From: Candidatus Uhrbacteria bacterium
Lineage (GTDB): Bacteria > Patescibacteriota > Patescibacteriia > UBA9934 > GWF2-40-263
Reading direction: 5' to 3'
DNA: 64,000 nucleotides
Assembly: GCA_016188495.1 (NCBI GenBank)
Contig: JACPHU010000006.1
Span: 1,857 to 65,856 of the forward strand
Shown here: in pieces, positions 49,931 through 62,011 of the stretch
Numbering within the stretch: the first letter of the stretch is position 1
How the letters are laid out: each line of letters starts with the position of its first letter
Translations under genes and position numbers: made by a program
Notes under the pieces: model-generated
Seen by the model: the letters and a program-made list of their open reading frames with translations, nothing else
The model's database searches: none
What the model was told of the DNA's origin: nothing

Positions 49931-49976
49931 ATATTCCCTGAGCGAAGCGACCCAAGGGAGCGGAGTCGAAGGGGCA
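49931..49976. repeat. family-C repeat unit, copy 3 (inverted orientation), downstream of ribH
   Basis: It reads aatattccctgagcgaagcgacccaagggagcggagtcgaaggggcataa. Confidence 0.65.
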
Positions 49977-50054
49977 TAAACGGAAGTTTTGCTTCCGTTT
50001 TTATAATCCACTTGTAACAAAAAATCCTCACGTCACACACATGAGGATGAAGAG

Positions 50055-51146
50055 TCAGTGGAGCCAGGTTTGAAGATCGTGATAGGTCACGAAGACCGTC
50101 ACAGCAAACAGGATCAACACACTCGCGATGACACAACCGTCCACTATCGCTTCCGGGAGGGCGTAGCGTCTACCAAACAGGGCAGGGATGGTCAAAAGGA
50201 TTCGTCCTCCGTCCAGCACCGGAATCGGCAACAAATTGAAGAAAATGAGGGAAAGAGACAGTCCCCATCCGTATAGAAGCAGATCCGCGATCCCTTTTTC
50301 CGCTTCCTTCATGCCGATGCGGACGATTTCCACAGGCCCTCCTACTGTATTTTTGGAATCTTTTCGGAACAGGTCCGAGATAATTTCTGGAAGCTGCTGC
50401 GTGACGATCACCATGGTGCCAAGTGTAAATAGGCTGGCGGCGGGGACCGTCCATACGCTCGTCACCTTCCACGCCTGATCTTGTTTCATCGCAAAAGCGA
50501 TGTTCGTACCCTTGGGCACACGAATGATGATCGGCTCCGGTTCGTTTTCTCTCCGGAACTGTATAGCGAGCTCGGCAGAAGACACCTGTTCCAGAAGACG
50601 GAGAGTTTCTTTGGAAGTTGTGCAGGAATGATCGTTTACATGTTCCAGAACGTCTCCTGGGCGGATTCCTTGTGTGTAAAGCCACGAAACTTCTTTCATT
50701 TCCGAGACAAATACTTTCGGATCTGTGACCTGCACCATGTTCCGAAGTTCCGGGTGCTGTTCCAGAACCGCCTCGGCGTCGTGACGACCTCCAAGGGAGA
50801 GAAAGATCGTCATGATCATAATGGCACCGACCAGATTTCCCACGACCCCGCTAATCAAAATAACGATCTGTTTGAAGGCGGATGCCTCGACAAAAGCACC
50901 TGTCGGGTCTTCTCCCTGTTCCAGTTCCATTCGGTGCATCCCTTTCAGCGTGACAAATCCTCCCAGCCAAAAGAGCCGCAGAACCCACCGAGTGTTTCGC
51001 CCTTGGTATGACCAAAGAGCGGGACCCATCCCAAGGGAAAATTCTTTGACCTGGACGCCGCAGATTCGTGCGGCAAGAAAATGTCCGAGTTCATGGATGA
51101 AAATCAGGCAGGCCAACAAGGCCAGAATCGCGATAAAATCGTTCAT
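50055..51146 (-). CDS. rseP: RIP metalloprotease RseP (site-2 protease, M50 family)
   Basis: It has HELGHFLAAR (HExxH), a PDZ-like middle, and a C-terminal LDGG motif. An AAGGTGG RBS precedes ATG 51146. The ORF track extends 62 codons further upstream. Confidence 0.85.
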   Translation of the reverse strand: MNDFIAILALLACLIFIHELGHFLAARICGVQVKEFSLGMGPALWSYQGRNTRWVLRLFWLGGFVTLKGMHRMELEQGEDPTGAFVEASAFKQIVILISGVVGNLVGAIMIMTIFLSLGGRHDAEAVLEQHPELRNMVQVTDPKVFVSEMKEVSWLYTQGIRPGDVLEHVNDHSCTTSKETLRLLEQVSSAELAIQFRRENEPEPIIIRVPKGTNIAFAMKQDQAWKVTSVWTVPAASLFTLGTMVIVTQQLPEIISDLFRKDSKNTVGGPVEIVRIGMKEAEKGIADLLLYGWGLSLSLIFFNLLPIPVLDGGRILLTIPALFGRRYALPEAIVDGCVIASVLILFAVTVFVTYHDLQTWLH

Positions 51147-51338
51147 TGTGAGCCACCTTTTTGTTTTGTAGGTGTATAAAGGACGAAGAAGAACCTTGGT
51201 GAGATTGTATGAAATTCGCTGTCCTGTCAATGGACTTGACAGAGGGTTAAGAGGAGAGTAACTTAGTGTGTGTAAGACACTATAAAGCGTTTTACCCCAT
51301 AAAATAAGGAGACTTTTGGGTAACTTTGACACGTTCTA

Positions 51339-51367
51339 TTGACAAAAACACTGAAATCGGGTATAGT
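51339..51367 (+). promoter_or_regulatory. consensus sigma70 promoter driving the GC-rich island
   Basis: TTGACA, an exact 17-nt spacer, then TATAGT, followed by a ~160-nt leader. Confidence 0.55.
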
Positions 51368-51530
51368 GCTCTCTTCGTTCATTGGCAAAGTCTGGCTTGC
51401 CACGCCTTAAATACTCTTACATCAAAGTATTTAGAGCGCGGTAAGTCAGTAATAAAAAAAGTAGTTGATAGTCACCGGCATGGTTGTTGGTGGCTCAGAA
51501 ATCCAATCCCGAAAGGGAAGGAGAAAGCAA

Positions 51531-52613
51531 ATGTTGAATGAACAGTTCAAGGTCGCTCTGGTTGCCGAAGGTGTCAACGAGGAGAATCTCAAGCTCCTCG
51601 AGTCTCAGGAGCTGTGTGATGTCAGCGATTTCGCGACCCTGCAGCCTGCGGATCTGACTGTCGTCGGAATGAAGCTCGGTGGGATCAATAAGGTCTTCAG
51701 GGTTGTTCGAAGACTGGCGGCTCCCGTGGCCTCCACTCCGGCTCCGGAAGTTCAGATTCCCGTGACTCAGGTGACCCCGGTGTCCCTTCCTCCGGTCGTT
51801 CCGGTTCAGGTGGCTCCCGTGGCCCATGCTCCGGTTTCCTCCGGTGGGGGAGATCTGGGTACGCTGTTTTCGACGCTGATTCCGCCCCAGACCCCGCAGG
51901 AAGCGGCCGAAAGGCTCTGTCGTGCCCCGAGTGACGCAAAGAGCCAGGAGTACTGGAGGCAGTTCTTCGGTCAGGAGACCCTGATCGTCTCCTCGACTCC
52001 GGGCTCCATCGATCGCGACAAGACCATGGAAGCGGTCGAAATCTGGGTGACCTCCGGTGAGGCTCCTTCGGAGCTCGATGGAGTGCCTCTGCTGAGCATC
52101 AGCGAGTTCCTCCAGTCCACCTTCGGTGCGTGCCCCTTCACCGGGGACCGTATCATCCGAGGTGGGATGTCGCTGAAGACCAACGTTCACTACGGGTTCT
52201 TGCTCGGGAATGATGTTTCGCTCTCGGCGATCCAGAATAGCCCCGGAATGAACTTCGTGGCGTTCGCCGCCGAAACCGGCAAGATCACCCGCGACCTTCA
52301 GACCTGGAAGACGCGGATGCTCGAGCTTCGCAGCATGGTCCAGGGCAAGGATATCTCCAGCCCCACGGCCATCAAGGCGGCCGTCGCCGGATCCGCGTGG
52401 GATGAAGTCGCGACCGACTACATCCGTGACGCCAATTCCGGTGGTGTCGTCGCCATGCGCGCTCGGGCACGGCTGGTGACCCAGGCCAAGCGACGGACCG
52501 TTCGGGCCCGCAACGACCTGTCGGGAATCGGAGAGGCTCTGACCTCCGGTTTCGACAAGGTCACCCGCCAGGACGGCTCCGTCCCCCGTCGGGATTTCGA
52601 ATCCCGCGGCTGA
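51531..52613 (+). CDS. island gene A: hypothetical protein (small N-terminal domain, Pro/Val-rich linker, unknown C-terminal domain)
   Basis: A GGAAGGAG RBS precedes ATG 51531. Its GC3 is much higher than the backbone. The linker is APVASTPAPEVQIPVTQVTPVSLPPVVPVQVAPVAHAPV. A terminator follows at 52728-52752. Confidence 0.65.
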   Translation: MLNEQFKVALVAEGVNEENLKLLESQELCDVSDFATLQPADLTVVGMKLGGINKVFRVVRRLAAPVASTPAPEVQIPVTQVTPVSLPPVVPVQVAPVAHAPVSSGGGDLGTLFSTLIPPQTPQEAAERLCRAPSDAKSQEYWRQFFGQETLIVSSTPGSIDRDKTMEAVEIWVTSGEAPSELDGVPLLSISEFLQSTFGACPFTGDRIIRGGMSLKTNVHYGFLLGNDVSLSAIQNSPGMNFVAFAAETGKITRDLQTWKTRMLELRSMVQGKDISSPTAIKAAVAGSAWDEVATDYIRDANSGGVVAMRARARLVTQAKRRTVRARNDLSGIGEALTSGFDKVTRQDGSVPRRDFESRG

Positions 52614-52727
52614 TAGATCGATCAACTCCGTCGGTTCCGACCATGACGGCGCAAGGGTAGCACTCAGTGCCCGGTGTCTGGTTGGACCTTCGGCCATTAC
52701 TCTATTACCCCTACGAAGGGAGTCCCC

Positions 52728-52752
52728 TGGACTCCCTTTTTCACTAGGCGAT
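52728..52752 (+). terminator. intrinsic terminator after island gene A
   Basis: The hairpin gggagtcc/ggactccc is followed by a T6 run. Confidence 0.7.
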
Positions 52753-52856
52753 TTATTTTCAAAATGAATCGTGTAGCGAAAGCATGTAGGCTTTCAATCA
52801 GTATTTTAGATCGGTCCTTTTGGATCGATTGTGTTCACAACAAAGGAGAGAATTCA

Positions 52857-54014
52857 ATGTCCAAACCCAATGAACTCAGACATGACAACCTAGTAATCGG
52901 GGTGAATTTTCCGGTCAAGTCGACTAACGCCGGGACAGGGTTGGTGGGTGGCTTCCCCTGGCCGGTACACAATGCGGCCGACTATAAGGACCGTGTTCCT
53001 GCCGCGTGGTTATCGGCCATGGGGCCTCGTCATGTGATCTTTTTCCTGGGTGCACCTGACCCGACCCGTCATTTTGATGAACAGGGTCTTGCCGAGCACG
53101 AGGTGGAACTGGATCAGAACGGCTGTCCCCGCGATCGTGAGATGTGGTTTGATTTTCAGGGGATGAATACCCTTGATCGTCACGTTGCTGTTGTGCTCGG
53201 TGTCCAGGGACTCAATGCTCTGACCGGACTTCCGACTTCTTCGGAACACAAGAGAGGACTGTACAACGGTCCCGGGTGTCCGAAACCCGAGCAGTATCCG
53301 GATGTTTGTCCGGTGCACGGTACCCCGTTCGAAGATCATCGGCGGATGTGTTCGGACTGTGGGTTCGAGTGGCCGTATCAGAATTACGTCACCAACTCCG
53401 TGACCGATCCAATGTTCCGCTTCTGGTGGGATGGGTGGCGCGGGGCGGACGGCAAGATCCAGCAATTCGCCATGCGTCCGGCTTCGGCTGGTGTCGGCGT
53501 GGCCCAGCAGGTGCTGGGCGAGGATCGTGCGCTGGGACTGAGTCTGGCTGTGTTTCTCAAGAAGCGACCCAAGCCGGCTCCGGTTTCCTCCTATCGTCAC
53601 TCCGATTTCCTCGAGTCTGACATCGTTTCCAAAGGGTTTTTGGGAGGTGGTGGAAAGAAGGTCTATTCTTTTGGAATGGGCGGAGAAGAGGAGGAAGAGG
53701 TGTATCGTTCGCCCACCCTCGGAACCACACGCGAGGCCACTCGTGGAGACACTACTCGAGGTGGTGTCCTGGGCGGCCGTCCTTCCGTTTCTCGGATCGG
53801 TGCTCCGTCTCGGATGGAGTTCGTCGCCGGTCGAACGGTCTTTCAGAAACTCTATTCCGATAATTCCACCCTGGACGAGTGGAGGGATGAACCCGAGGTG
53901 ACCTTCACCTTGATTCCCGTGGACATGGCGTGGGCGGCCGAGGTAACCAAGTACGGTCCCACCACGCGACAAGTTGCCACCGGACCGTTCGCGGGTCTCA
54001 AGAGCGTCGGCTGA
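52857..54014 (+). CDS. island gene B: hypothetical protein (Cys/His cluster, Gly-rich low-complexity segment)
   Basis: An AAAGGAGAG RBS precedes ATG 52857. It contains CPVHGTPF...CSDCGFEW and FWWDGWRGADG, which match no recognized family. It is GC-rich. Confidence 0.6.
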   Translation: MSKPNELRHDNLVIGVNFPVKSTNAGTGLVGGFPWPVHNAADYKDRVPAAWLSAMGPRHVIFFLGAPDPTRHFDEQGLAEHEVELDQNGCPRDREMWFDFQGMNTLDRHVAVVLGVQGLNALTGLPTSSEHKRGLYNGPGCPKPEQYPDVCPVHGTPFEDHRRMCSDCGFEWPYQNYVTNSVTDPMFRFWWDGWRGADGKIQQFAMRPASAGVGVAQQVLGEDRALGLSLAVFLKKRPKPAPVSSYRHSDFLESDIVSKGFLGGGGKKVYSFGMGGEEEEEVYRSPTLGTTREATRGDTTRGGVLGGRPSVSRIGAPSRMEFVAGRTVFQKLYSDNSTLDEWRDEPEVTFTLIPVDMAWAAEVTKYGPTTRQVATGPFAGLKSVG

Positions 54015-54164
54015 TTTCCGACGTAACACGGTCAAGATCGATTCCCACGGAGTCGGCCCTTGACCCTTTTCTTGGGAAGAGAAGAGGAGTAATCCTTTGG
54101 CTCTTCTGAAGAGAAGAAATTTGCTTTCGACCTTTACAAATGAAGTTGAGATAAGGAGGTTTAG

Positions 54165-55004
54165 ATGAAAGGCAATAACACAGAGGCGACCTACTATCCT
54201 GGTAAGTCAGTGGCGAAAACCCCGCATTATGAGCTGTTTTACTGTGAGACCGAGAACGGTCGGCAGTGTCTCATGCAGATCGCTAAAGCACCGGAACACA
54301 ACGGGGTACTCGATCGGTTCGCATATGTGCTGCGCGAGCTCAAGCATAAGGCAGACGAGCTCGAAGAAGAACATGAAGAGAAGAAAAAGGATCCTGCTAA
54401 TGGGATTCCTGCTCACGTGTTCTTGAATTACGATCTTGGTTTCCCCCAGGTCGTCGACAGTTTCATCAGTTCCGAACAGGGTGGATGTCGAATCAATATC
54501 TTGGCCTTTAGGGAAGTTGAGCGCGTGTCTGACATGCACCCTCTGGCAAAGTATATTCGAGTGGCCAATGAGCGGTGCGATCTGCGAACCAGTATCTGGA
54601 TCATGGGCAGGACGCTCAAGTTGATCGATCTGGTGCATATGATGGGATTTTCTCTTCAGGAGATGAAGACAGGTAATATTCTCATTCAGCCTGAAGAACA
54701 TCACGTTGTGCTGTTTAATCCTGGCATTCAAATGTGTCCGGGAGAAGTTCCTTTGGAACAGCGGCGCAAGGAGATTGCTCAGGCGACCACGTCGGTTATT
54801 CAGTTGTTGGGCGGCAATATTCTTACACGAGAATTCCCCCAAGATCTCAAGTCGGAGATTGGGTGTAAGGAATATACGGATCATCTCCTCATGCTGGCCG
54901 CCGGAGGAGAATACGACGCCCATGCGGCGTATCGTCGTTTCTATCAGCTTATTGATCGGTTTTGGGAGCGGAAGTTTCATCGTGCTCAGTTTTTGGCACG
55001 CTGA
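54165..55004 (+). CDS. island gene C: protein-kinase-fold-like protein lacking the catalytic Asp residues (possible pseudokinase or atypical nucleotide-binding enzyme)
   Basis: A TAAGGAGG RBS is present. CLMQIAK resembles the beta3 Lys segment. HMMGFSLQEMKTGNILIQPEEHHVVLFNPG resembles the catalytic loop plus DFG region, with D replaced by Q and by N. Confidence 0.55.
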   Translation: MKGNNTEATYYPGKSVAKTPHYELFYCETENGRQCLMQIAKAPEHNGVLDRFAYVLRELKHKADELEEEHEEKKKDPANGIPAHVFLNYDLGFPQVVDSFISSEQGGCRINILAFREVERVSDMHPLAKYIRVANERCDLRTSIWIMGRTLKLIDLVHMMGFSLQEMKTGNILIQPEEHHVVLFNPGIQMCPGEVPLEQRRKEIAQATTSVIQLLGGNILTREFPQDLKSEIGCKEYTDHLLMLAAGGEYDAHAAYRRFYQLIDRFWERKFHRAQFLAR

Positions 55005-55040
55005 AAATAGACGAAACATGAACGAAAAGGGAGAGAAAAA

Positions 55041-56180
55041 ATGGGAAATCGTACCCCGTCTCGTGATACGTATGAAGAGGCAAAATCGACATATGTTCCG
55101 GATTCTGGACCTGCTACAGCTCGCGCTGAACAACAAGCGCGAAGGACAGGAAAACTTCATCCGCTGGTTGATCCGGCGGAATTCGGAGTGATCCGCCCTT
55201 CGCATATGCGAATGAAACAGCTTCTAAACGGGCTTTGGTCTGTGAATGTAGGAACACCATTGCCACGTCAGCGGCGCGTAGATACGACGGCCAGTATGGG
55301 TAATAACGTCGATGTGGTTCTTGGTGTCTTGCAGGATGCGTACGAGCTGGCTATGCAGGTTCTGCCTGTTGGGTATGACCTGCAGGAAGCCAATGAGATC
55401 TTCGGAGATATACAAGATAGGTTTGTGCTTTGCCGTTCGCAGTTTGAGATGCTCTCTGAGCGGATCGTGGAGCAGCTGACCTTGATGGTTCCTGAGCGTG
55501 ATGGCGGAGATGTTCCAGAAGACCCTCACTACGGGTTGTTTGGAGCAGCCTACTTGACCGATGCCTATATTAATCGCATCGGTCTTAAGGGTTACGACTT
55601 CACCGTCTCTGATGCAGAGGCTCGATACGAGTTGGAGGCACGACATCTTCGTCGAATTTTCGGAGATCAGGTCTTCGATAAGACGAAGGAAAACGGTTAC
55701 GATATTGATCCTCGGCATCTTCCCAGCACCAAAGAGGTGGTTCGTGAGCTTGCCAAACGATCTCATTATTTCTTCCTTCAGATCAAGTCCTCTTCACAGG
55801 CGACTCGTTTCTGGACGGATGTGTTCGGTTCTGAACGGGTCGTGCTGGTACCAGATGCCAAATATGTCCCTCATATTGAAGCCGTGATCATGGGTCTGAC
55901 CGAAGGGACCCTGAGTCTGTCGGACGTCACTCCGTTTCTCATGAAGAATGGCGTCGATCGCAATGACGCTCAACGAATCGTCCGGGCTGTGGGACATATT
56001 CCGATCGGCGCGCAGGCTGCTTTGCCCAACGTTGCCCGGCGTCCCAAAGCAGGTGACCTGTTTCGAGAGAAGCCTGTCGGTACGCAGACCAGTCCTTGGC
56101 CGCTGACCCCCGAGGAAATCGCCGCGTTTAATCTCGACTCTTCGGCAGAGCAGGACGAAGGCGAGATCAGCTGGGTCTGA
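55041..56180 (+). CDS. island gene D: hypothetical protein (379 aa)
   Basis: An AAAAGGGAGAG RBS is present. It is GC-rich and has no recognizable motif. Confidence 0.6.
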   Translation: MGNRTPSRDTYEEAKSTYVPDSGPATARAEQQARRTGKLHPLVDPAEFGVIRPSHMRMKQLLNGLWSVNVGTPLPRQRRVDTTASMGNNVDVVLGVLQDAYELAMQVLPVGYDLQEANEIFGDIQDRFVLCRSQFEMLSERIVEQLTLMVPERDGGDVPEDPHYGLFGAAYLTDAYINRIGLKGYDFTVSDAEARYELEARHLRRIFGDQVFDKTKENGYDIDPRHLPSTKEVVRELAKRSHYFFLQIKSSSQATRFWTDVFGSERVVLVPDAKYVPHIEAVIMGLTEGTLSLSDVTPFLMKNGVDRNDAQRIVRAVGHIPIGAQAALPNVARRPKAGDLFREKPVGTQTSPWPLTPEEIAAFNLDSSAEQDEGEISWV

Positions 56181-56188
56181 GGTAACAA

Positions 56189-56233
56189 CCCGCCCGACTG
56201 AACGACGAGGAGTTCTGTTCAGTCGTTCGGGCA
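56189..56233. repeat. family-A GC-rich hairpin repeat, copy 3, directly after island gene D
   Basis: It reads cccgcccgactgaacgacg-aggagttctg-ttcagtcgttcgggca. Confidence 0.7.
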
Positions 56234-56238
56234 AGCGC

Positions 56239-56286
56239 GGTCGAAGTGATTCCATAGGGAGTCATTTCGACCTTTTTTTGAAGAGA
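56239..56286 (+). terminator. intrinsic terminator
   Basis: The hairpin ggtcgaa...ttcgacc is followed by a T7 run. Confidence 0.65.
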
Positions 56287-56408
56287 GAAAAGAATAGAGA
56301 ATAGTCTTTTTACTCTCTTGAAAAGAAGGAAGTGTTGAATCGATACGGCCTTCGATAGGCTCAGGCAATAATGAGGTTTTTCAACATTTTTCATTGAGGA
56401 GATGATCC

Positions 56409-57785
56409 ATGGTCAGTAATGTTATTGTCCCCACCGACCATGGTCCTGGGGACGGTGGCAAGGGCGGAGTCGTTCATCGACTTTGTTGCGATCGTCGAGT
56501 CCATACCGTTTTGAAAGAAGGGATGTTTTGCGGTAATCATGGGATCTGTACGGCTACAGGGCAGCGTTATGCCTTTAGTTTGTGGGGATGCGGAACGTTG
56601 GGAGGCGTGAGGACTCACTTTACTCAGCGATTTGTTGCCTCGGCCGTTGGGCTCCTTAATGAAGCGCGAGATTTGCGATATTTATTTGGAATTCATGATC
56701 CCTTTGAGTTGCTTACGATAGACGAACGCACCCTGTTTGCCACGTCTTATCACGGCTTCATGTCGCGTCTGAAGGAACTTGCTCTGGGGAAGAATCCGCG
56801 CGGGACCGTTGGCACAGGAGCAGGCGCTGGTTATCGCGATGCGCAGCGAGTTCCGGAACTGGCTCTTTATGCTCGAGATTTGTCACGACCGGATTTGAGA
56901 GATCGTCTCGCTGCTGTTCGTGAACAGGTTATTCGTGATCTGGAGCCGATCATTCAGAATGGGTTTCTTCCGGAGGATCAGGAAGCAGCCGATCAAGAGA
57001 TCAGTCATCTGTATGATGATGGATTTCTCGAGTATGTTGTGGATCAATTCCGGCAGGTAGCACGTCTGGTCAAAGTCGTGGGGCCTGAATATCTGGGTCA
57101 AGAGATTCTTTCCAAAGACGGCGTTGTCGTCGTGGAAAAGTCTCACGGCATTCTGACGGACCATTATCAGGGTTTCCATCCGCACACCAGTGCGATTCGG
57201 ACATTGCCGTCTTTCACGCGCTCAATGCTCGAAGAGGCTGAGTACCGCGGACGGATCACGGATATTGCGGTGCATCGGGCGTATCAAATCCGTCACGGTG
57301 CAGGACCCATGCCAACGCATGATCCTGCCATGGGCGAGCACTTGTTGCCTGGCAGCAACAAGGATGAAAATCGCTACCAGGGCAAGGTCCGCGTGGGACC
57401 GCTTGATCTGGTGATGCTACGCTACGCCCTTGCCTGTGCGGGCCCTATGAACGGCCTCGCCCTCACTTGGTTTGATCAGGTTCAGCTCAACGGCGAGTGG
57501 AACATTTGTCACCGTTACCGTGGGGCAGATGATCCACGATTCTTTACACCAGAGGGCGAGATCAAGGTTCGACAGGGGGATGACGAAGATCAGCTTGCTC
57601 ACCAAGAAGCTCTTGGCAAAGCGTTGCTGGAAGTCACTCCTGAGATCACGACCTACCCAATCTCCAAGAACGCTTCGCGCGAAGAGCTGTACAAACTGTG
57701 TACGGACATCCTTCAGGAACATCTTGGAATCCCCGTAAGAATGATTTCGTTTGGCCCTACCGAACGAGACAAACTTTGCAAATAA
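56409..57785 (+). CDS. island gene E: highly divergent adenylosuccinate synthetase (PurA)-family protein
   Basis: It aligns by eye to PurA landmarks. VIVPTDHGPGDGGKGGVVHRL corresponds to VVLGTQWGDEGKGKIVDLL. GTVGTGAGAGYRDAQRV corresponds to GTTGRGIGPAYEDKVAR. EKSHGILTDHYQGFHPHTSA corresponds to [21 protein letters not shown]. The C-terminal ISFGPTERD corresponds to ISTGPDRTE. Several catalytic positions are altered. Confidence 0.7.
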   Translation: MVSNVIVPTDHGPGDGGKGGVVHRLCCDRRVHTVLKEGMFCGNHGICTATGQRYAFSLWGCGTLGGVRTHFTQRFVASAVGLLNEARDLRYLFGIHDPFELLTIDERTLFATSYHGFMSRLKELALGKNPRGTVGTGAGAGYRDAQRVPELALYARDLSRPDLRDRLAAVREQVIRDLEPIIQNGFLPEDQEAADQEISHLYDDGFLEYVVDQFRQVARLVKVVGPEYLGQEILSKDGVVVVEKSHGILTDHYQGFHPHTSAIRTLPSFTRSMLEEAEYRGRITDIAVHRAYQIRHGAGPMPTHDPAMGEHLLPGSNKDENRYQGKVRVGPLDLVMLRYALACAGPMNGLALTWFDQVQLNGEWNICHRYRGADDPRFFTPEGEIKVRQGDDEDQLAHQEALGKALLEVTPEITTYPISKNASREELYKLCTDILQEHLGIPVRMISFGPTERDKLCK

Positions 57786-57789
57786 AAAC

Positions 57790-57830
57790 GACCCGAGCAG
57801 TCACGACGACCGCTCGGGTTTTTCTTTTTT
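57790..57830 (+). terminator. intrinsic terminator ending the island
   Basis: The hairpin cccgagc/gctcggg is followed by a T5 run, then an AT-rich tract. Confidence 0.7.
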
Positions 57831-57859
57831 CTTCATCCCTTTACTACTCTACTACTTTG

Positions 57860-59743
57860 CTACTCACTACCTTTTTCTTTGGATACTTTCGGCAGAAAAA
57901 CATTTCTTACAAATAATTTCGTTGCTGTCTGTCGATATCCGGAATCCCAGAACATGCTTTGCCCATCAATCTGATCGGCATGGGGTGTTTGGATGCCTCC
58001 ATACGAAGGAAAAAAGCGTTCATATCCTTTGTGCATCAAACGGTATTGCAGGGTGTCGCGTTCTAATTCTTCCAAGTAGAGACCTCTGGCTTGGCGGCCA
58101 TGAATGGCGTTTGTCGGATCATCCGTCAAATAAGGCACCAGCAGTTTTTTACGCATGTCTTGTATGGCCCGCGTGTTACCTTCCCAAGCTGCTCCAAAAA
58201 GAACATGCGTCCAGGAACGTTCGCCCATGAACGGTTCAGATGTTTTTAGATCATTGCGAATCGTGAGCGTGTCTCCAGAGGTTTCAAGCCAAAATTGCAC
58301 AGCATCTCCTTCGATTCGTTCGTGAATAAATATGCGTTTCAGAAGATTTCGTATCTCTTCTTTTTGTTCCATCGGCGTTCCGGGTTTAACAAACACCGCG
58401 ACATCGATGTCGGAGTTTTGTGAACCGTATTTAAGCCTTGATCCAAATAAGAGAATAATAGGATAAACATATTTGGACAGTTCAGGATCTTTTTCTATGG
58501 CATGCGCGATATCGTTTATCTCGCGCAATTCTTTTTTCATCAGTTTGAGATTTTCAGAAAATGGTCCCTCGAGTGTGGGTAGAGAGATGTCTAACACACG
58601 AAGTTCTTTTTCATCCACCACATCTAGGCGATAGAGCCGGCGGAATGTTTTAGAAAGAGACTCTCGCAGATCAAAGGTTTCCTGTTCCTTCCAAAGATTT
58701 ATGAGGGTTCCATGGAACTGTTCGTACATTCTTTTTGCTTTTTCTGTATCCGTGTGCGCGATTTCTTCGATGGCTTTTCGGATTCCTTCAACGAGCGCTT
58801 TCTGGGTTTCAAGATGTACGTCTGGCGCAAGAAAGGCCTTTGCTGTTTCTTCACCAAACGTTTGGGTGACGACGACTGTTTTGATTCCCTCGCTCACTGC
58901 TTCGATAGATTTTCGTTTTTTTTCCTGTCTCATCCATGCCGTACGTTTTTTTGTTTCATATTCTTCTGTATCAATTTGCGCAAAGTCTCGTCCTAGACGC
59001 GCTTGGATTGATTCTAAGGTGATGGGTTTGATTTCCGGGATTTCTTTTTTTAGTGATTGAGTCTCTTGGGGAAAAAATCCTAGATCTGCCAACACAGGGA
59101 GTGTCTCTGTAATACTTTGTTTTAAGATGTTGTCTTCCGTCGTCTCTTTGAGGTCTGACACTTCCTGTGTTGTCATGAGACCTTTTTCAACAAGTTTTGG
59201 AATCAGGTGCGCCGCTTTCACGACCCGCGGAAGATCTCCGGTGCGCAGTTCTACTTCCATCACGTCACCATCCACAAAATTCGCACGAACATCCTGGATA
59301 CTCAACAATCGTTTCCACGTGTTCATGTAGACGTCTTTGAATCGTTCCATGGCGGGACGAAGAGTATCTGATGCAGGTTTCCAACTTGAATCAGGAAGAA
59401 ATTCAAAAGGGAGATACAAAAGGATTCGTCTATATTCAGGATAGGTTTCAAGAAGATCACTTACTGAAGTATAGAGATCCTCGATTTGGCCTTCTGTCAG
59501 GCAATGCTGTTCGACGGCTTCTTGAAGCGAAACATCGGGTCGTGGAAGACGATCTATCACAACCGTTAGCCGTTCATTGAGAACTCTGCGCGATTCTAAT
59601 TCCCCTAGAAATTCTTTGTTGTGTGAGAGCTCTTTAGCCCAGGTGTTTTCAAGCCCTGTTGGACGCAAAAAGGTCTCAATCGCCGGAGAAACCACAGGGA
59701 TTTTAGGTTCCATTTCAGCTCTTTGTTCTAAATTTTCTTTCAT
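57860..59743 (-). CDS. large hypothetical protein with a C-terminal Pol-beta-superfamily nucleotidyltransferase domain
   Basis: The NTase signature is LLFGSRLKYGSQNSDIDVAVFV (GS...DxD). Codon usage is backbone-like. The N-terminal ~430 aa is helical and of unknown function. Confidence 0.7.
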   Translation of the reverse strand: MKENLEQRAEMEPKIPVVSPAIETFLRPTGLENTWAKELSHNKEFLGELESRRVLNERLTVVIDRLPRPDVSLQEAVEQHCLTEGQIEDLYTSVSDLLETYPEYRRILLYLPFEFLPDSSWKPASDTLRPAMERFKDVYMNTWKRLLSIQDVRANFVDGDVMEVELRTGDLPRVVKAAHLIPKLVEKGLMTTQEVSDLKETTEDNILKQSITETLPVLADLGFFPQETQSLKKEIPEIKPITLESIQARLGRDFAQIDTEEYETKKRTAWMRQEKKRKSIEAVSEGIKTVVVTQTFGEETAKAFLAPDVHLETQKALVEGIRKAIEEIAHTDTEKAKRMYEQFHGTLINLWKEQETFDLRESLSKTFRRLYRLDVVDEKELRVLDISLPTLEGPFSENLKLMKKELREINDIAHAIEKDPELSKYVYPIILLFGSRLKYGSQNSDIDVAVFVKPGTPMEQKEEIRNLLKRIFIHERIEGDAVQFWLETSGDTLTIRNDLKTSEPFMGERSWTHVLFGAAWEGNTRAIQDMRKKLLVPYLTDDPTNAIHGRQARGLYLEELERDTLQYRLMHKGYERFFPSYGGIQTPHADQIDGQSMFWDSGYRQTATKLFVRNVFLPKVSKEKGSE

Positions 59744-59959
59744 AAGTACCTTAAAAATACTCTAAATACGGATCTTTTTCAATAAAAACACCCCGAAACA
59801 CGTCGGGGTTTTTCTATTGACAAAATGGCTATTTTATGGTACTTTATATCGTCTTTTGGGAGGTTTTTGGATCGATTGGTCCTTTAACTCTCTTTATGAC
59901 GCAATAAGTTTTTCGTTTTCGTTTCAGTTTTTTCAACGCACAATCTGGAGGAAGTACCC

Positions 59960-60890
59960 ATGGATCCACGAGAACTCACAGACAACGAACGCCGTCTCGC
60001 CGTACCCGAAGAGAAGCGAACCGGGATTATCCTGCTCATCAAGCAGGTATTGCTCCTGGATACTCTGGAGCAAGCAGCTTCTTTCTTCGTTGCTCTGCGC
60101 GGTCGCGCCGAAGGGCGAGTTGTGCTGACCTTCGGAGAACTTCGCACCTTGGCCAACACCGCCAAGATCGTTCAGGCGGGTGCGAAAGCGGGTATCGAGG
60201 ATGTGGAGAGCCAGGCAGTGGATTTTGCCGACGTCCTGGCCTCTATCGCTGATCCCAACATGCCCATCTGCGAGAAATGTCACCGCTATGCGGTTGACGT
60301 GGAAGGCAGTGTTGTCACCCTTATCAAGGGAGTTCGTTGCCCCCGGTCTTTACGAGATCAGTGACCTGGTTCGCGACGCTCTGGAACAGGAGGGACTCAA
60401 GACCGAGGAAGGGGAGATTAATGTGGCTCACTTCCTCATGTATCTGGCCCATGATCCTTCCGTCGCTTCCCGTTTCCGAGGCAAGGACGAGGTGCTCGTA
60501 TCATTGGGTAGGCCGAGTATGTTCGGAGCCTATGATCTGACCTCGGTTCGCGCCGAAGTGAGGAAGGGGTGGAAGCCCACCTTTGGCAACGAGACGCCGC
60601 CTCCCGTTCAGAAGAAGGCGAGTTCCGGTGCTCCTCTTTCTCTGACTCGGGAACAGATAAAGATTTTGAGGAAGATCCTCGGTGAGCTAATCTATGATCC
60701 CTCTGCCATCAGAATGGTCGTCGAAGACGCAGGTCTTATCGTATGGAGGATTGAGATAAGCGGAGTGCCAGAAATAATTTGGGAGAACATCATCAAGGAG
60801 GCAGACAAAGAGGTGCGTCTGCGTGCTTTGATCGAGACGCTCAGTGAGCGTTACCCCGCCAATCAGACGCTGAAGTCTTTTCTCAACTGA
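59960..60890 (+). CDS. GC-rich hypothetical protein with a C-terminal effector-associated-domain-like (EAD-like) module, interrupted by a frameshift in a C5 homopolymer (60340-60344)
   Basis: A GGAGGAAG RBS is present. The upstream frame ends ...LIKGVRCP. The downstream frame continues GLYEISDLVRDALEQEGL with no start codon. The C-terminal part SLTREQIKILRKILGELIYDPSAIRMVVEDAGLIVWRIEISGVPEIIWENIIKEADKEVRLRALIETLSERYPAN fits the EAD-style pattern. Confidence 0.5.
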
Positions 60891-60909
60891 GGGAGACTTC
60901 ACGATACGA

Positions 60910-60938
60910 GCAGGATCTACGAAGATCCTGCTTTTTTA
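60910..60938. terminator. bidirectional intrinsic terminator
   Basis: The hairpin gcaggatct/agatcctgc is followed by a T6 run. It lies between convergent genes. Confidence 0.7.
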
Positions 60939-62011
60939 TTCTCACATTTTTTTACGATTTTTCCTTTGGTCAAAATGCCTGATTTGTAGAGTTCAAGAAG
61001 TCCTAACAATGCGGCTAAAATGGTTGGGCCGGCGATGGAGCCGACGGCACCGAACGAGGCGAGGCCTCCCAGGACGCTCAAAAGGACCAGAAAGGAATTC
61101 ATGTGCGCTTTGCCGCCGATCAGGTGCGGACCCACGACGTTGTCGATGGTACTGACAAAGACAAGAGACCAAATCAAAAGACCAAGAGCGGCTCCTGTTG
61201 AACCGGTAAAAAAGAGATAGGCAATGGCGGGGATCAATACGATCGATGTTCCCAGAAGTGGGACAAGACCAACCAGTGCTGTGAGGGCTCCCCAAATAAG
61301 CGAACCGGGAACTCCGAAGATGGTCATTCCAAGTCCGGCGATGAATCCTTGGATGATCGCCACAAGCATGACGCCAAACACCACAGAGCGAATGGTGTTC
61401 ACGATACGTTTGAGGAGTTTTTCATCCGCTCCATCTTCTAACGGTGAGAGAGCGAGAACGTCTTTATAGAGTTTGTCTCGATTCACCAGAATGTAATAGA
61501 GCGATAAGAAGAAAATAAACGCGTGCAAAATGAGTTTGGTCGTGCTTGAAAAAAGATTACCGACATTTTCAAACGCCCAGGAGGCGATAGATTTCCCCAT
61601 CTGCGCTAGATCGATTTCCATCAGTTCTTTTTGTACAGGAGCAGGAAGGGCTTGAATCAACGGGGAAGTCGCGGGATTGAGTTTTTCAAGCCAGCTTGTG
61701 TCATCAAAAGATGTCTTAATCAGATCAGAGGCTTGTGTGACCATGAGAAAAAGGGTGATAAGCAATGGAATGAAGATTAAGAAAAATGTTCCAAGCACAA
61801 GCAGGATCGCTGAAAAACGAGGACGTTTCAGCCAGACTCGAAGTTTCCGGTCAATCGGTGACAAAATAACGGCTACCACTCCGGCAATCAGCAGAACTAA
61901 GATAAATGGCTGAATGACTCGCCAAAATAAATAAAGCACGACGGCGGTTACCAGAAGAAAAAACCATTTTTCAATCGTCATGTGCTCAGGAAGTTGTTTT
62001 GTCATAGTCAT
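60917..62011 (-). CDS. AI-2E family transporter (PerM-like permease)
   Basis: It has eight hydrophobic helices. The family-typical N-terminus is FLLVTAVVLYLFWRVIQPFILVLLIAGVVAVILSP. C-terminal GxxxG-rich helices are present. Confidence 0.75.
   Translation of the reverse strand: MTMTKQLPEHMTIEKWFFLLVTAVVLYLFWRVIQPFILVLLIAGVVAVILSPIDRKLRVWLKRPRFSAILLVLGTFFLIFIPLLITLFLMVTQASDLIKTSFDDTSWLEKLNPATSPLIQALPAPVQKELMEIDLAQMGKSIASWAFENVGNLFSSTTKLILHAFIFFLSLYYILVNRDKLYKDVLALSPLEDGADEKLLKRIVNTIRSVVFGVMLVAIIQGFIAGLGMTIFGVPGSLIWGALTALVGLVPLLGTSIVLIPAIAYLFFTGSTGAALGLLIWSLVFVSTIDNVVGPHLIGGKAHMNSFLVLLSVLGGLASFGAVGSIAGPTILAALLGLLELYKSGILTKGKIVKKCENKKAGSS

What the first reader, a model, noticed from the sequence alone, without database searches (positions are those of the whole stretch)
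59960..60890. Second GC-rich gene carrying an EAD-like C-terminal module, broken by a C5 homopolymer frameshift, next to a large NTase-domain gene
A 310-aa reading frame is split exactly at ccccc (60340-60344). Upstream it reads ...LIKGVRCP. The shifted frame continues GLYEISDLVRDALEQEGL... with no start codon of its own.

The C-terminal ~75 aa (IYDPSAIRMVVEDAGLIVWRIEISGVPEIIWENIIKEADKEVRLRALIETLSERYPAN) fits the pattern of the small alpha-helical effector-associated domains (EADs). In NTP-dependent conflict systems those domains couple effectors to sensors (established knowledge, Kaur-Iyer-Aravind type analyses).

The gene has the same high GC3 as the 51-58 kb island. It is separated from the island only by a backbone-composition gene, which encodes a 627-aa protein with a Pol-beta-type nucleotidyltransferase domain (57860-59743). 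The two GC-rich segments may be remnants of one acquired locus.

The homopolymer frameshift could be a sequencing artefact, recent inactivation, or slippage-based phase variation.
Basis: partly seen in the sequence, partly recalled or inferred. Interest (0 to 1): 0.6.

Follow-up and report, generated by a model that had tools for sequence, protein, structure and literature searches.

The report
Broken EAD1 adaptor gene in Uhrbacteria
This is a decaying copy of a rare, uncharacterised gene of candidate-phyla (CPR) bacteria that joins a new zinc-ribbon module to a known Death-like "effector-associated" adaptor domain (EAD1); here it has lost 158 bases, so the gene itself is an ordinary pseudogene, but it points to an undescribed gene cluster.

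Summary
Two frames (59960-60343 and 60345-60890) join at CCCCC (60340-60344) into a 309-aa protein. Its last ~80 aa match Pfam EAD1 above the curated cut-off (42.7 vs 24.2 bits).

The break is not a simple homopolymer slip. The window lacks 158 nt at that point compared with its closest intact relative (366 aa, syntenic contig). The missing 53 codons hold the fourth zinc-ligand Cys and near-invariant W, D and P residues. C4 or C7 would restore the frame; C6 would not, and the restored protein would still lack that core.

The gene belongs to a rare family (55 representatives among 1.84 billion). Members have a ~265-aa N-terminal helical plus Zn-ribbon module with no Pfam, NCBIfam or PDB match, followed by EAD1, EAD7 or a kinase-like domain.

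In relatives the intact gene closes a cluster of a Zn-ribbon-kinase paralogue, two putative vWA-like proteins and a PurA-like protein. Other close relatives carry it intact, with a truncated EAD1, or not at all.

The neighbouring NTase gene is a conserved Patescibacteria backbone gene, not a partner. No second EAD1 gene lies within the 64 kb.

Assembly artefact is not excluded: a second contig of the same MAG ends exactly at the junction.

The parts
59763..60937 (+). The whole EAD cassette: relic terminator, promoter, gene and terminator. It is a presence/absence unit among close relatives.
   Evidence: In L012 (Logan SRR22388050; NTase DNA 89.8% identical) window 59762 abuts window 60938, so these 1175 bp are missing there. 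The cassette is present in L005.
59790..59815 (.). GC-rich hairpin with a T-run, terminator-like on both strands. It is probably the relic terminator of an upstream cluster gene.
   Evidence: Terminator scan. Identical in L005 and L006. In L006 it directly follows the stop codon of the 725-aa kinase gene.
59817..59845 (+). Promoter-like site: TTGACA (59817-59822), 17-nt spacer, TGg-TACTTT (extended -10, 59837-59845).
   Evidence: Read from the sequence. The TTGACA and its surroundings are invariant across window, L005, L006 and L008. The consensus scanner did not list it, so this is inferred.
59947..59951 (+). GGAGG ribosome-binding site, 8 nt before the ATG at 59960.
   Evidence: Sequence. 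Conserved in L005 and L006.
59960..60343 (+). Frame A: codons 1-128 of the N-module. These are the helical subdomain and the first three Zn-ribbon cysteines (CEKC ... RCP).
   Evidence: 113 of 128 residues identical to P0002. Profile hit E=1e-46. dN/dS against L005 is 0.15.
60340..60344 (+). CCCCC junction: the site of a net 158-nt deletion and a +1 frame change.
   Evidence: DNA alignment with L005 has a 158-column gap at columns 605-762. Profile positions 130-183 are absent. A second contig of the same MAG (HYV70_04610, partial) ends exactly at Pro128.
60345..60638 (+). Frame B, first part: the C-terminal helical subdomain of the N-module (fused aa 129 to about 215) and a Pro-rich linker.
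   Evidence: 65 of 89 aligned positions identical to P0002. Profile hit at positions 184-263. dN/dS 0.22. The linker is disordered in the AF2 model of P0002.
60639..60881 (+). EAD1 domain (fused aa 227-307). The stop codon is at 60888-60890.
   Evidence: Pfam PF19955, 42.7 bits, cut-off 24.2. 42 of 87 aligned positions identical to the L006 domain, but only 24 of 85 to the P0002 domain.
60908..60943 (+). Intrinsic terminator hairpin with a T-run. It overlaps the 3' end of the convergent AI-2E transporter gene.
   Evidence: Terminator scan. The hairpin is conserved in L005.
57860..59743 (-). 627-aa protein with a Pol-beta-type NTase domain. It is a neighbour and not part of the feature.
   Evidence: Pfam Polbeta 24.8 bits, just under the 26.9 cut-off. 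319+ homologues across Patescibacteria at 45-54% identity over the full length. Linked to PurA in L013.
52857..54014 (+). Gene B, a Cys-rich protein of unknown function. It is the window gene most clearly shared with the clusters that end in the intact ZnR-EAD gene.
   Evidence: 63% identical to the L001/L006 homologue and 41% to the L008 homologue. The start coordinate follows the gene call in L014. No Pfam, PHROG or PADLOC match.

Best explanation
The feature is a recently inactivated copy of a rare Patescibacteria gene.

The intact gene encodes about 340-480 aa. It has an N-terminal module of about 265 aa: a helical subdomain, a four-Cys zinc ribbon with a beta region, and a second helical subdomain. 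A disordered linker follows, then a C-terminal EAD1 domain. EAD1 is a small all-helical adaptor with predicted relatives in the Death-like superfamily.

In the window a net 158-bp deletion at 60340-60344 removed 53 codons and shifted the frame. The lost codons include the fourth zinc ligand and near-invariant Trp, Asp and Pro residues. No full-length product can be made.

Inferred mechanism of the intact protein: the N-module is a docking or sensor module. It is shared with a paralogous protein in the same cluster, where it is fused to a kinase-like domain. Through this module the protein would join a complex formed by the cluster's proteins (Zn-ribbon-kinase, putative vWA-like proteins, PurA-like enzyme). 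The EAD1 domain would then recruit, by homotypic EAD1-EAD1 contact, an effector or signalling protein that carries the same domain and is encoded elsewhere.

In the window's lineage the elaborate cluster is no longer present. The kinase-like gene here has no Zn-ribbon module, there is one putative vWA-like gene, and backbone PurA and NTase genes lie in between. The adaptor gene is therefore a stranded remnant that is being lost.

Shown: domain identity, the deletion, family architecture, synteny, and presence/absence among relatives. Inferred: the docking role, the recruitment of an effector, and any conflict or defence function.
For: - EAD1: Pfam hit above the gathering score. 11 of 50 family members match EAD1 (best E=2e-32), 2 match EAD7, and one matches TIR weakly.
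- Deletion: the window lacks 158 nt compared with syntenic L005. P0002, P0003 and P0004 are single ORFs that carry the missing segment with CP(x1-3)C. Across 50 members C104 and C127 are invariant, and C107, P128, C132, W148, D161 and P169 are at least 90% conserved. The window has lost C132, W148, D161 and P169.
- Structure: the AF2 model of P0002 built with 50 sequences has pLDDT 92.9. The deleted residues 129-181 hold three beta strands and a helix.
- Recent inactivation: dN/dS against L005 is 0.15 and 0.22 at dS 0.5-0.66, similar to the intact neighbouring genes.
- No chimera at the junction: both sides of the junction are closest to P0002, at 88% and 73% identity.
- Paralogy: an N-module profile built only from the EAD class hits the Zn-ribbon-kinases of the same clusters at E=1.5e-11 and 1.9e-7. 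Direct BLASTP gives 2e-10.
- Cluster and site: L006 and L008 carry the cluster ending in the ZnR-EAD gene, followed by the AI-2E transporter gene on the minus strand. The terminator and promoter upstream of the gene are conserved with L006.
- Decay in relatives: the gene is intact in L005, L006 and L008. EAD1 is truncated in L001-L004. The whole cassette is absent in L012.
- EAD role: taken from Kaur et al. 2020 (PMC7159879).
Against: - No cognate EAD1 gene was found in the 64-kb window or in any related locus. The pairing that defines EAD logic is therefore not shown here.
- No NTPase core of a described system lies nearby.
- The vWA assignment rests only on a conserved D-x-S/T-x-S motif and one weak DUF444 hit. 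Pfam and PDB profile searches gave nothing.
- The deletion rests on one short-read MAG assembly. A second contig of the same MAG ends exactly at the junction. An independent Logan contig stops 36 nt into the gene. Together these show at least two alleles or copies in the sample and an assembly-graph branch at this point.
- A 159-nt in-frame deletion followed by a C4-to-C5 insertion would give the same sequence.
Confidence: 0.62

Rival explanations
1. Assembly artefact. The organism carries an intact gene (or two copies), and the 158-nt gap with the extra C was produced where the assembly graph branches between two alleles or copies.
For: - P0011 (HYV70_04610, partial) comes from the same MAG and differs from frame A at 3 of 128 residues. 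It sits at the end of a 15,172-bp contig and stops exactly at Pro128.
- The Logan contig L014 is 100% identical to window 49945-59995 but ends in codon 12 of the gene.
- The exact 134-aa and 192-aa products are recorded only from the NCBI MAG.
Against: - De Bruijn assemblers only join k-mers that occur in reads, so the junction sequence should exist physically.
- There is no repeat at the two deletion ends in L005 that could cause a collapse.
- Sequence on both sides of the junction is closest to the same relative.
- Decay of this gene is seen independently in other lineages.
Confidence: 0.18
2. The locus is still used in a reduced form. Either the frame-B ORF (181-192 aa: the C-terminal helical subdomain plus EAD1) is translated on its own as a free adaptor or decoy, or a +1 ribosomal slip on CCC-CGG (tRNA-Pro re-pairing before a rare Arg codon) yields the 309-aa fusion.
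For: - The EAD1 domain is complete, covering model positions 2-85 of 90.
- The promoter, RBS and terminator are intact.
- C-CCC-CGG is the kind of sequence on which +1 slippage is known to occur (established knowledge, not tested here).
- A TTG at 60312 lies behind a GGAAGG and overlaps the end of frame A.
- dN/dS of frame B is still low, at 0.22.
Against: - No homologue is split or frameshifted at this site; all are single ORFs.
- Either product lacks a zinc ligand and 53 conserved residues.
- Low dN/dS is expected anyway if inactivation is recent.
- Complete loss in L012 shows that the gene is dispensable.
Confidence: 0.1
3. Slippage-based phase variation: the C run switches the gene on and off.
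For: The frame change coincides with a homopolymer. If a 159-nt in-frame deletion came first, C4 to C5 would be a slippage step.
Against: - Five C is short for a contingency tract (established knowledge).
- L005 has C4 followed by unrelated sequence, and other homologues have no tract.
- The 'on' state would still lack the conserved core.
Confidence: 0.04

Closest known systems
EAD1-tagged components of the NTP-dependent conflict systems of Kaur, Burroughs, Iyer and Aravind (eLife 2020, PMC7159879; Pfam PF19955)
   Same: - A terminal, small, all-helical, non-enzymatic EAD1 domain on a constant module.
- The EAD varies between close relatives (EAD1, EAD7, tandem helical domains), and the EAD1 of the window is mosaic relative to its N-module.
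- The gene is patchy and decays among strains, as expected for accessory conflict genes.
   Different: - The fused N-module matches no described core or effector domain (VMAP, iSTAND, GAP1, Ubl, caspase, trypsin, TIR).
- No MoxR, STAND or DO-GTPase gene is nearby.
- No cognate EAD1 gene is adjacent.
- The host is a candidate-phyla-radiation bacterium, a group left out of that paper's habit analysis.
Kinase with zinc ribbon + PP2C + stand-alone vWA theme in GAP1-N2 neighbourhoods (same paper, section 29)
   Same: A kinase-fold protein fused to a zinc ribbon lies beside stand-alone putative vWA-like proteins in one operon.
   Different: - No PP2C phosphatase, GAP1 or GTPase.
- The kinase-like domain appears to lack the canonical HRD/DFG residues (my reading of the sequence, not tested).
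- The zinc ribbon is embedded in a larger ~265-aa module that is duplicated onto an EAD carrier.
- A PurA-like enzyme is present.
- The vWA identity is unproven.
Death-fold adaptors (DED, CARD)
   Same: The helical C-terminal domain of the AF2 model gives DED (CASP8) and CARD (BinCARD) as its top but non-significant Foldseek hits. The paper reports that several all-helical EADs resemble the Death-like superfamily.
   Different: The matches are not significant (E of 1.8 or worse, TM below 0.4), and polymerisation was not tested.

Membership tests
EAD1 (Pfam PF19955) | Sequence match to the family profile above the curated gathering score | tested here: met
   42.7 bits against a cut-off of 24.2, E=7.7e-11, fused aa 227-307 on model positions 2-85 of 90.
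EAD1 (Pfam PF19955) | Small, terminal, all-alpha, non-enzymatic domain | tested here: met
   The domain is C-terminal and about 80 aa. In the AF2 model of homologue P0002, residues 284-365 are five helices at pLDDT above 90. The window's own domain was not modelled.
EAD coupling logic (Kaur et al. 2020) | A second copy of the same EAD on a core or effector protein, often in an adjacent gene, otherwise elsewhere in the genome | tested here: inconclusive
   A family-specific EAD1 profile and phmmer found no other EAD1 ORF in six-frame translations of the 64-kb window or of loci L001-L013. The rest of the genome could not be searched.
EAD coupling logic (Kaur et al. 2020) | Constant module joined to EADs that vary between relatives | tested here: met
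   Of 50 N-module proteins, 11 carry EAD1, 2 carry EAD7, one has a weak TIR match, and others carry unassigned helical tails. The window's EAD1 is 48% identical to L006 but 28% to P0002, although its N-module is 88% identical to P0002.
vWA-MoxR, STAND or GAP1-GTPase conflict systems | A core NTPase gene (MoxR AAA+, STAND, DO-GTPase) in the neighbourhood | tested here: not met
   Pfam and PADLOC scans of the window's cluster proteins, and Pfam and PHROGs scans of the L001 cluster proteins, show none. The only NTP-using enzymes found are PurA or PurA-like proteins and kinase-like proteins.
vWA-MoxR, STAND or GAP1-GTPase conflict systems | A vWA-domain component | tested here: inconclusive
   Six cluster proteins share an invariant D...S within a D-x-S/T-x-S motif, and one has a weak DUF444 hit. 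Pfam and PDB profile searches gave no vWA match.
Zn-ribbon N-module family (unnamed; 55 representatives) | Complete module with four zinc-ligand cysteines and the conserved W, D and P core | tested here: not met
   The window matches profile positions 1-129 and 184-263 only. C132, W148, D161 and P169 (P0002 numbering) are deleted. It is a homologue but not an intact member.
Phase-variable contingency gene | Long repeat tract whose length change restores a full, conserved ORF | tested here: not met
   The tract is C5. C4 or C7 gives a protein missing 53 conserved residues. Homologues have no such tract.
Programmed +1 frameshift gene | Frameshift site conserved in homologues | tested here: not met
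   All full-length homologues retrieved (P0002-P0010, P0012, P0013) are single ORFs through this region.

The most novel reading that the evidence does not exclude
The intact relatives define an undescribed EAD1-coupled system, known so far only from Patescibacteria-like contigs. Its parts are a new ~265-aa Zn-ribbon module present twice (once on a kinase-like domain, once on an EAD), two putative vWA-like proteins, and a divergent adenylosuccinate-synthetase-like protein.

PurA belongs to the P-loop GTPase fold (established knowledge). It could therefore be the NTP-dependent core of this system, taking the place of MoxR, STAND or the DO-GTPases. The EAD1 would pass the output to effectors encoded elsewhere.

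This would extend Death-like adaptor signalling to ultra-small, non-multicellular episymbionts. It would also suggest a non-metabolic role for a PurA paralogue.
Probability: 0.25. Interest if true: 0.7.

Novelty: new variant of a known kind. Interest (0 to 1): 0.45.

Why it matters
EAD and Death-like adaptors were described mainly in large-genome, multicellular bacteria. Finding EAD1 on a new constant module in a candidate-phyla-radiation bacterium widens where this adaptor logic occurs. The module sits beside a kinase-like paralogue, putative vWA-like proteins and a PurA-like enzyme.

The work also yields a concrete, testable cluster whose N-module can be modelled with high confidence. The window's own copy is of limited value because it is a pseudogene. 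It does document rapid gain, loss and decay of this gene among near-identical genomic backgrounds: intact, internally deleted, EAD-truncated and fully absent.

Tried and rejected
- NTase as partner: rejected. It is a conserved backbone gene that is linked to PurA in many Patescibacteria contigs.
- Window PurA as an island gene: rejected. It has 1196+ homologues at 57-67% identity. The PurA-like genes of L001, L006 and L008 are a different paralogue, 30-32% identical.
- Phage origin: no viral-contig relatives were found, and PHROGs gave only generic kinase and PurZ-type hits.
- Defence-system models (PADLOC): nothing significant.
- Rfam on 59600-61100: nothing.
- GTDB genome collection: neither peptide patterns nor a 39-nt DNA pattern found the family.
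- Fetching the second MAG contig (HYV70_04610), or other contigs encoding the exact 192-aa product, failed.
- Gene A (51531-52613) could not be linked to the 'A-like' genes of L008, L013 and L016.
- The first AF2 run with 3 sequences was unusable (pLDDT 51).

Full report
**1. Observation**

- An ATG at 59960 follows a GGAGG ribosome-binding site. It opens a frame that reads ...LIKGVRCP up to 60343.
- A second frame, shifted by +1, reads GLYEISDLVRDALEQEGL... from 60345 to a stop at 60888-60890.
- The two frames meet at CCCCC (60340-60344). Joined, they give 309 aa.
- Removing one C or adding two restores the frame. Adding one (C6) does not.
- GC3 is 0.62 in both halves. The window mean for genes of 150 aa or more is 0.438 (sd 0.084).
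- NCBI annotated the two pieces as separate hypothetical proteins, HYV70_01805 (134 aa) and HYV70_01810 (192 aa), of a Candidatus Uhrbacteria MAG.

**2. The C-terminal domain is EAD1**

The fused protein matches Pfam PF19955 (EAD1) at residues 227-307. The score is 42.7 bits against a curated cut-off of 24.2, with E=7.7e-11. NCBIfam and PADLOC give nothing for this protein.

**3. The break is a 158-nt deletion**

Only four relatives turned up among 5.8 billion clustered proteins.

The closest is P0002 (366 aa). It lies on contig L005, which is syntenic with the window:

| Flanking gene | Protein identity to the window |
|---|---|
| NTase | 78% |
| AI-2E transporter | 96% |
| 560-aa protein | 84% |

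DNA alignment shows that the window lacks 158 consecutive columns exactly at the C run. P0002, P0003 and P0004 all carry the missing segment as part of one ORF.

Across 50 family members, conservation in this region is as follows:
- C104 and C127 are invariant.
- C107, P128, C132, W148, D161 and P169 are at least 90% conserved.

The window keeps C104, C107, C127 and P128. It has lost C132, W148, D161 and P169.

A profile built from other members matches the window at positions 1-129 and 184-263 only.

The same sequence could arise in two ways: one 158-nt deletion, or a 159-nt in-frame deletion followed by C4 to C5. I cannot tell them apart. In either case the frame-restored product lacks the conserved core.

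**4. Timing of the inactivation**

| Region (window vs L005) | dN/dS |
|---|---|
| Frame A | 0.15 |
| Conserved part of frame B | 0.22 |
| NTase | 0.21 |
| AI-2E transporter | 0.06 |

dS is 0.5-0.66. The gene therefore evolved under purifying selection for most of the time since the two lineages split, and the inactivation is recent.

**5. The family**

A profile search of 1.84 billion representatives found 55 proteins at E of 1e-3 or better. They fall into two length classes:
- about 330-480 aa: the N-module plus a small helical tail;
- about 520-580 aa: the N-module plus a kinase-like domain.

Pfam results on 50 members:

| Pfam family | Members matching |
|---|---|
| EAD1 | 11 (best E=2e-32) |
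| EAD7 | 2 |
| Pkinase | 5 |
| APH | 2 |
| TIR | 1 (weak) |

An AlphaFold2 model of P0002 built with these 50 sequences has mean pLDDT 92.9 and pTM 0.70. Its layout is:
- helices at residues 8-96;
- a beta and zinc-ribbon region at 112-169;
- helices at 172-257;
- a disordered linker at 268-277;
- a five-helix C-terminal domain at 284-365.

The deleted residues 129-181 hold three strands and one helix.

Foldseek against the PDB and against viral models gave no significant match. The best PDB hits are CASP8 DED and BinCARD CARD at E of 1.8 or worse. PDB sequence-profile searches were also empty. The N-module is therefore uncharacterised in every library I could reach.

**6. Genomic context in relatives**

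*L006 (JGI, 20 kb) and L001 (same strain).* The gene is the last in a same-strand cluster:
- a homologue of window gene B (63% identical);
- a 554-aa Zn-ribbon-kinase-like protein;
- two 325-338-aa proteins with a D-x-S/T-x-S motif;
- a PurA-like protein;
- a 381-aa protein;
- a 725-aa protein kinase;
- the ZnR-EAD gene.

In L006 the AI-2E transporter gene (92% identical to the window's) and the 561-aa gene (87%) follow. That is the same chromosomal site as in the window.

*L008 (Logan).* The order is ribE, ribH, a 500-aa gene, B, Zn-ribbon-kinase, two putative vWA-like genes, PurA-like, then a ZnR protein with two helical tail domains, then AI-2E.

*Paralogy.* The N-module profile built only from the EAD class hits the Zn-ribbon-kinases at E=1.5e-11 (L008) and 1.9e-7 (L001/L006) over positions 11-200. 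A further Zn-ribbon-kinase (L016) hits P0002 directly at 2e-10. The same module therefore occurs twice in one cluster, once on a kinase-like domain and once on an EAD.

*Upstream region.* The hairpin and promoter upstream of the window's gene are almost identical in L006, where the hairpin terminates the preceding kinase gene. This fits descent of the window's cassette from such a cluster.

**7. What the window has instead**

The window's genes between the M50 peptidase and the cassette are:
- gene A (unknown function);
- gene B;
- a 279-aa kinase-like protein without the Zn-ribbon module (PHROG kinase, E=1e-5);
- one 379-aa putative vWA-like protein;
- PurA;
- the NTase, on the opposite strand.

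PurA has more than 1196 homologues at 57-67% identity. The NTase has 319 or more full-length homologues. At least 35 of the top 120 hits of the two searches share a contig length.

In a distant Patescibacterium (L013) the order is kinase-like, putative vWA-like, PurA, an 'A-like' gene, then NTase on the minus strand. Identities to the window are 46%, 41%, 64% and 50% for the kinase-like, putative vWA-like, PurA and NTase proteins.

Two conclusions follow:
- This part of the supposed island is a conserved lineage-wide block.
- The NTase is backbone, not a partner of the EAD gene.

**8. Decay among relatives**

| Locus | State of the gene |
|---|---|
| L005, L006, L008 | Intact |
| L001-L004 (same strain as L006, four samples) | EAD1 cut short after about 45 residues; all four contigs end about 100 nt or less past the stop codon |
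| L012 (NTase DNA 89.8% identical) | The whole 1175-bp cassette (window 59763-60937) is absent; NTase abuts AI-2E |
| Window | 158-nt internal deletion |

The EAD1 of the window is 48% identical to that of L006 but only 28% to that of P0002. Its N-module is 88% identical to P0002 and 43% to L006. The gene is thus mosaic, as described for EADs.

**9. Partner search**

A family-specific EAD1 profile and phmmer found no other EAD1 ORF in the six-frame translation of the window or of any fetched locus. No MoxR, STAND or GTPase core was seen. The pairing that defines EAD logic (Kaur et al. 2020, PMC7159879) is untested beyond 64 kb.

**10. Caveat on the assembly**

- The same MAG holds a second, partial copy of the N-terminal 128 residues. 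It is HYV70_04610, with 3 differences, at the end of a 15,172-bp contig, and it stops exactly at Pro128.
- An independent Logan contig is identical to window 49945-59995 and ends in codon 12 of the gene.

The sample therefore holds at least two alleles or copies, and the junction is an assembly-graph branch point. I rate a real deletion as more likely for three reasons:
- the junction k-mers must occur in reads;
- there is no repeat at the deletion ends;
- both sides of the junction are closest to the same relative.

Only read mapping can settle this.

**11. Verdict**

The EAD call is right. The 'homopolymer frameshift' is really a deletion that makes a pseudogene. The NTase link is coincidental.

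The interest lies in the family and its cluster. They combine a known adaptor (EAD1) with an undescribed module and an unusual set of neighbours, in a candidate-phyla-radiation lineage.

Noticed in passing
window 54165-59743; L013 7973-14586: The block kinase-like (279 aa), putative vWA-like (379 aa), PurA and a 627-aa NTase on the opposite strand is conserved in a distant Patescibacterium. PurA and the NTase share a contig length in at least 35 of the top 120 hits of each search. A lineage-wide linkage of PurA to a kinase-like protein and a putative vWA-like protein is unexplained.
   Followed up: partly
L001 4781-6190; L006 4697-6178: In the PurA-like protein of the elaborate cluster, the P-loop element (GFGDQGKGTTVE, aa 233-244) lies in the middle of the protein, just before the FEPAQG strand. 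It is not at the N-terminus. The L008 orthologue has it at the N-terminus. This looks like a relocated or permuted P-loop.
   Followed up: partly
window 59787-59860: About 70 nt (hairpin, TTGACA, extended -10) are nearly identical in window, L005 and L006, although the downstream proteins are only 43% identical between window and L006. The region is much more conserved than synonymous sites, where dS is about 0.5. It may be a regulatory site or a recombination hot spot.
   Followed up: partly
same MAG, other contig (HYV70_04610, MBI2473805.1): There is a second, partial copy of the gene's first 128 codons, with 3 amino-acid differences, at the end of a 15,172-bp contig. It stops exactly at the window's junction. 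No second NTase or PurA copy from this MAG appeared in the protein searches, so its context may differ.
   Followed up: partly
L001-L004 gene ends, compared with L006 10001-11107: Four contigs from different samples carry an allele whose EAD1 diverges after ...LSLERV and ends 12 codons later. All four contigs stop about 100 nt or less past the stop codon. This is a strain-variable breakpoint inside EAD1.
   Followed up: partly
window 60917-60937 (AI-2E 3' end): The last codons of the AI-2E transporter differ with the state of the cassette. The tail is ...GKIVKKCENKKAGSS in the window...GKIVEKCEK in L005 and ...GKS in L012, which lacks the cassette. The tail is therefore partly encoded by cassette DNA that overlaps the shared terminator.
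   Followed up: no
window 51495-52697 (-) versus 51531-52613 (+): Gene A (GC3 0.74, with a Pro/Val-rich middle) is shadowed by a longer 400-aa antisense ORF. Independent gene calls on L014 pick the + strand. Gene A has no detectable homologue in the related clusters.
   Followed up: partly
L001 7633-9810: The 725-aa protein kinase of the elaborate cluster has a C-terminal region with a G-x-P-H-K-G-H motif. This resembles the HxGH signature of cytidylyltransferase-type nucleotidyltransferases. That is my reading only; Pfam gives no hit there.
   Followed up: no
L013 18285-21386: About 4 kb downstream of the NTase in this distant relative lie a serine recombinase, a bAvd-like gene and a reverse transcriptase. 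These are parts of a diversity-generating retroelement.
   Followed up: no
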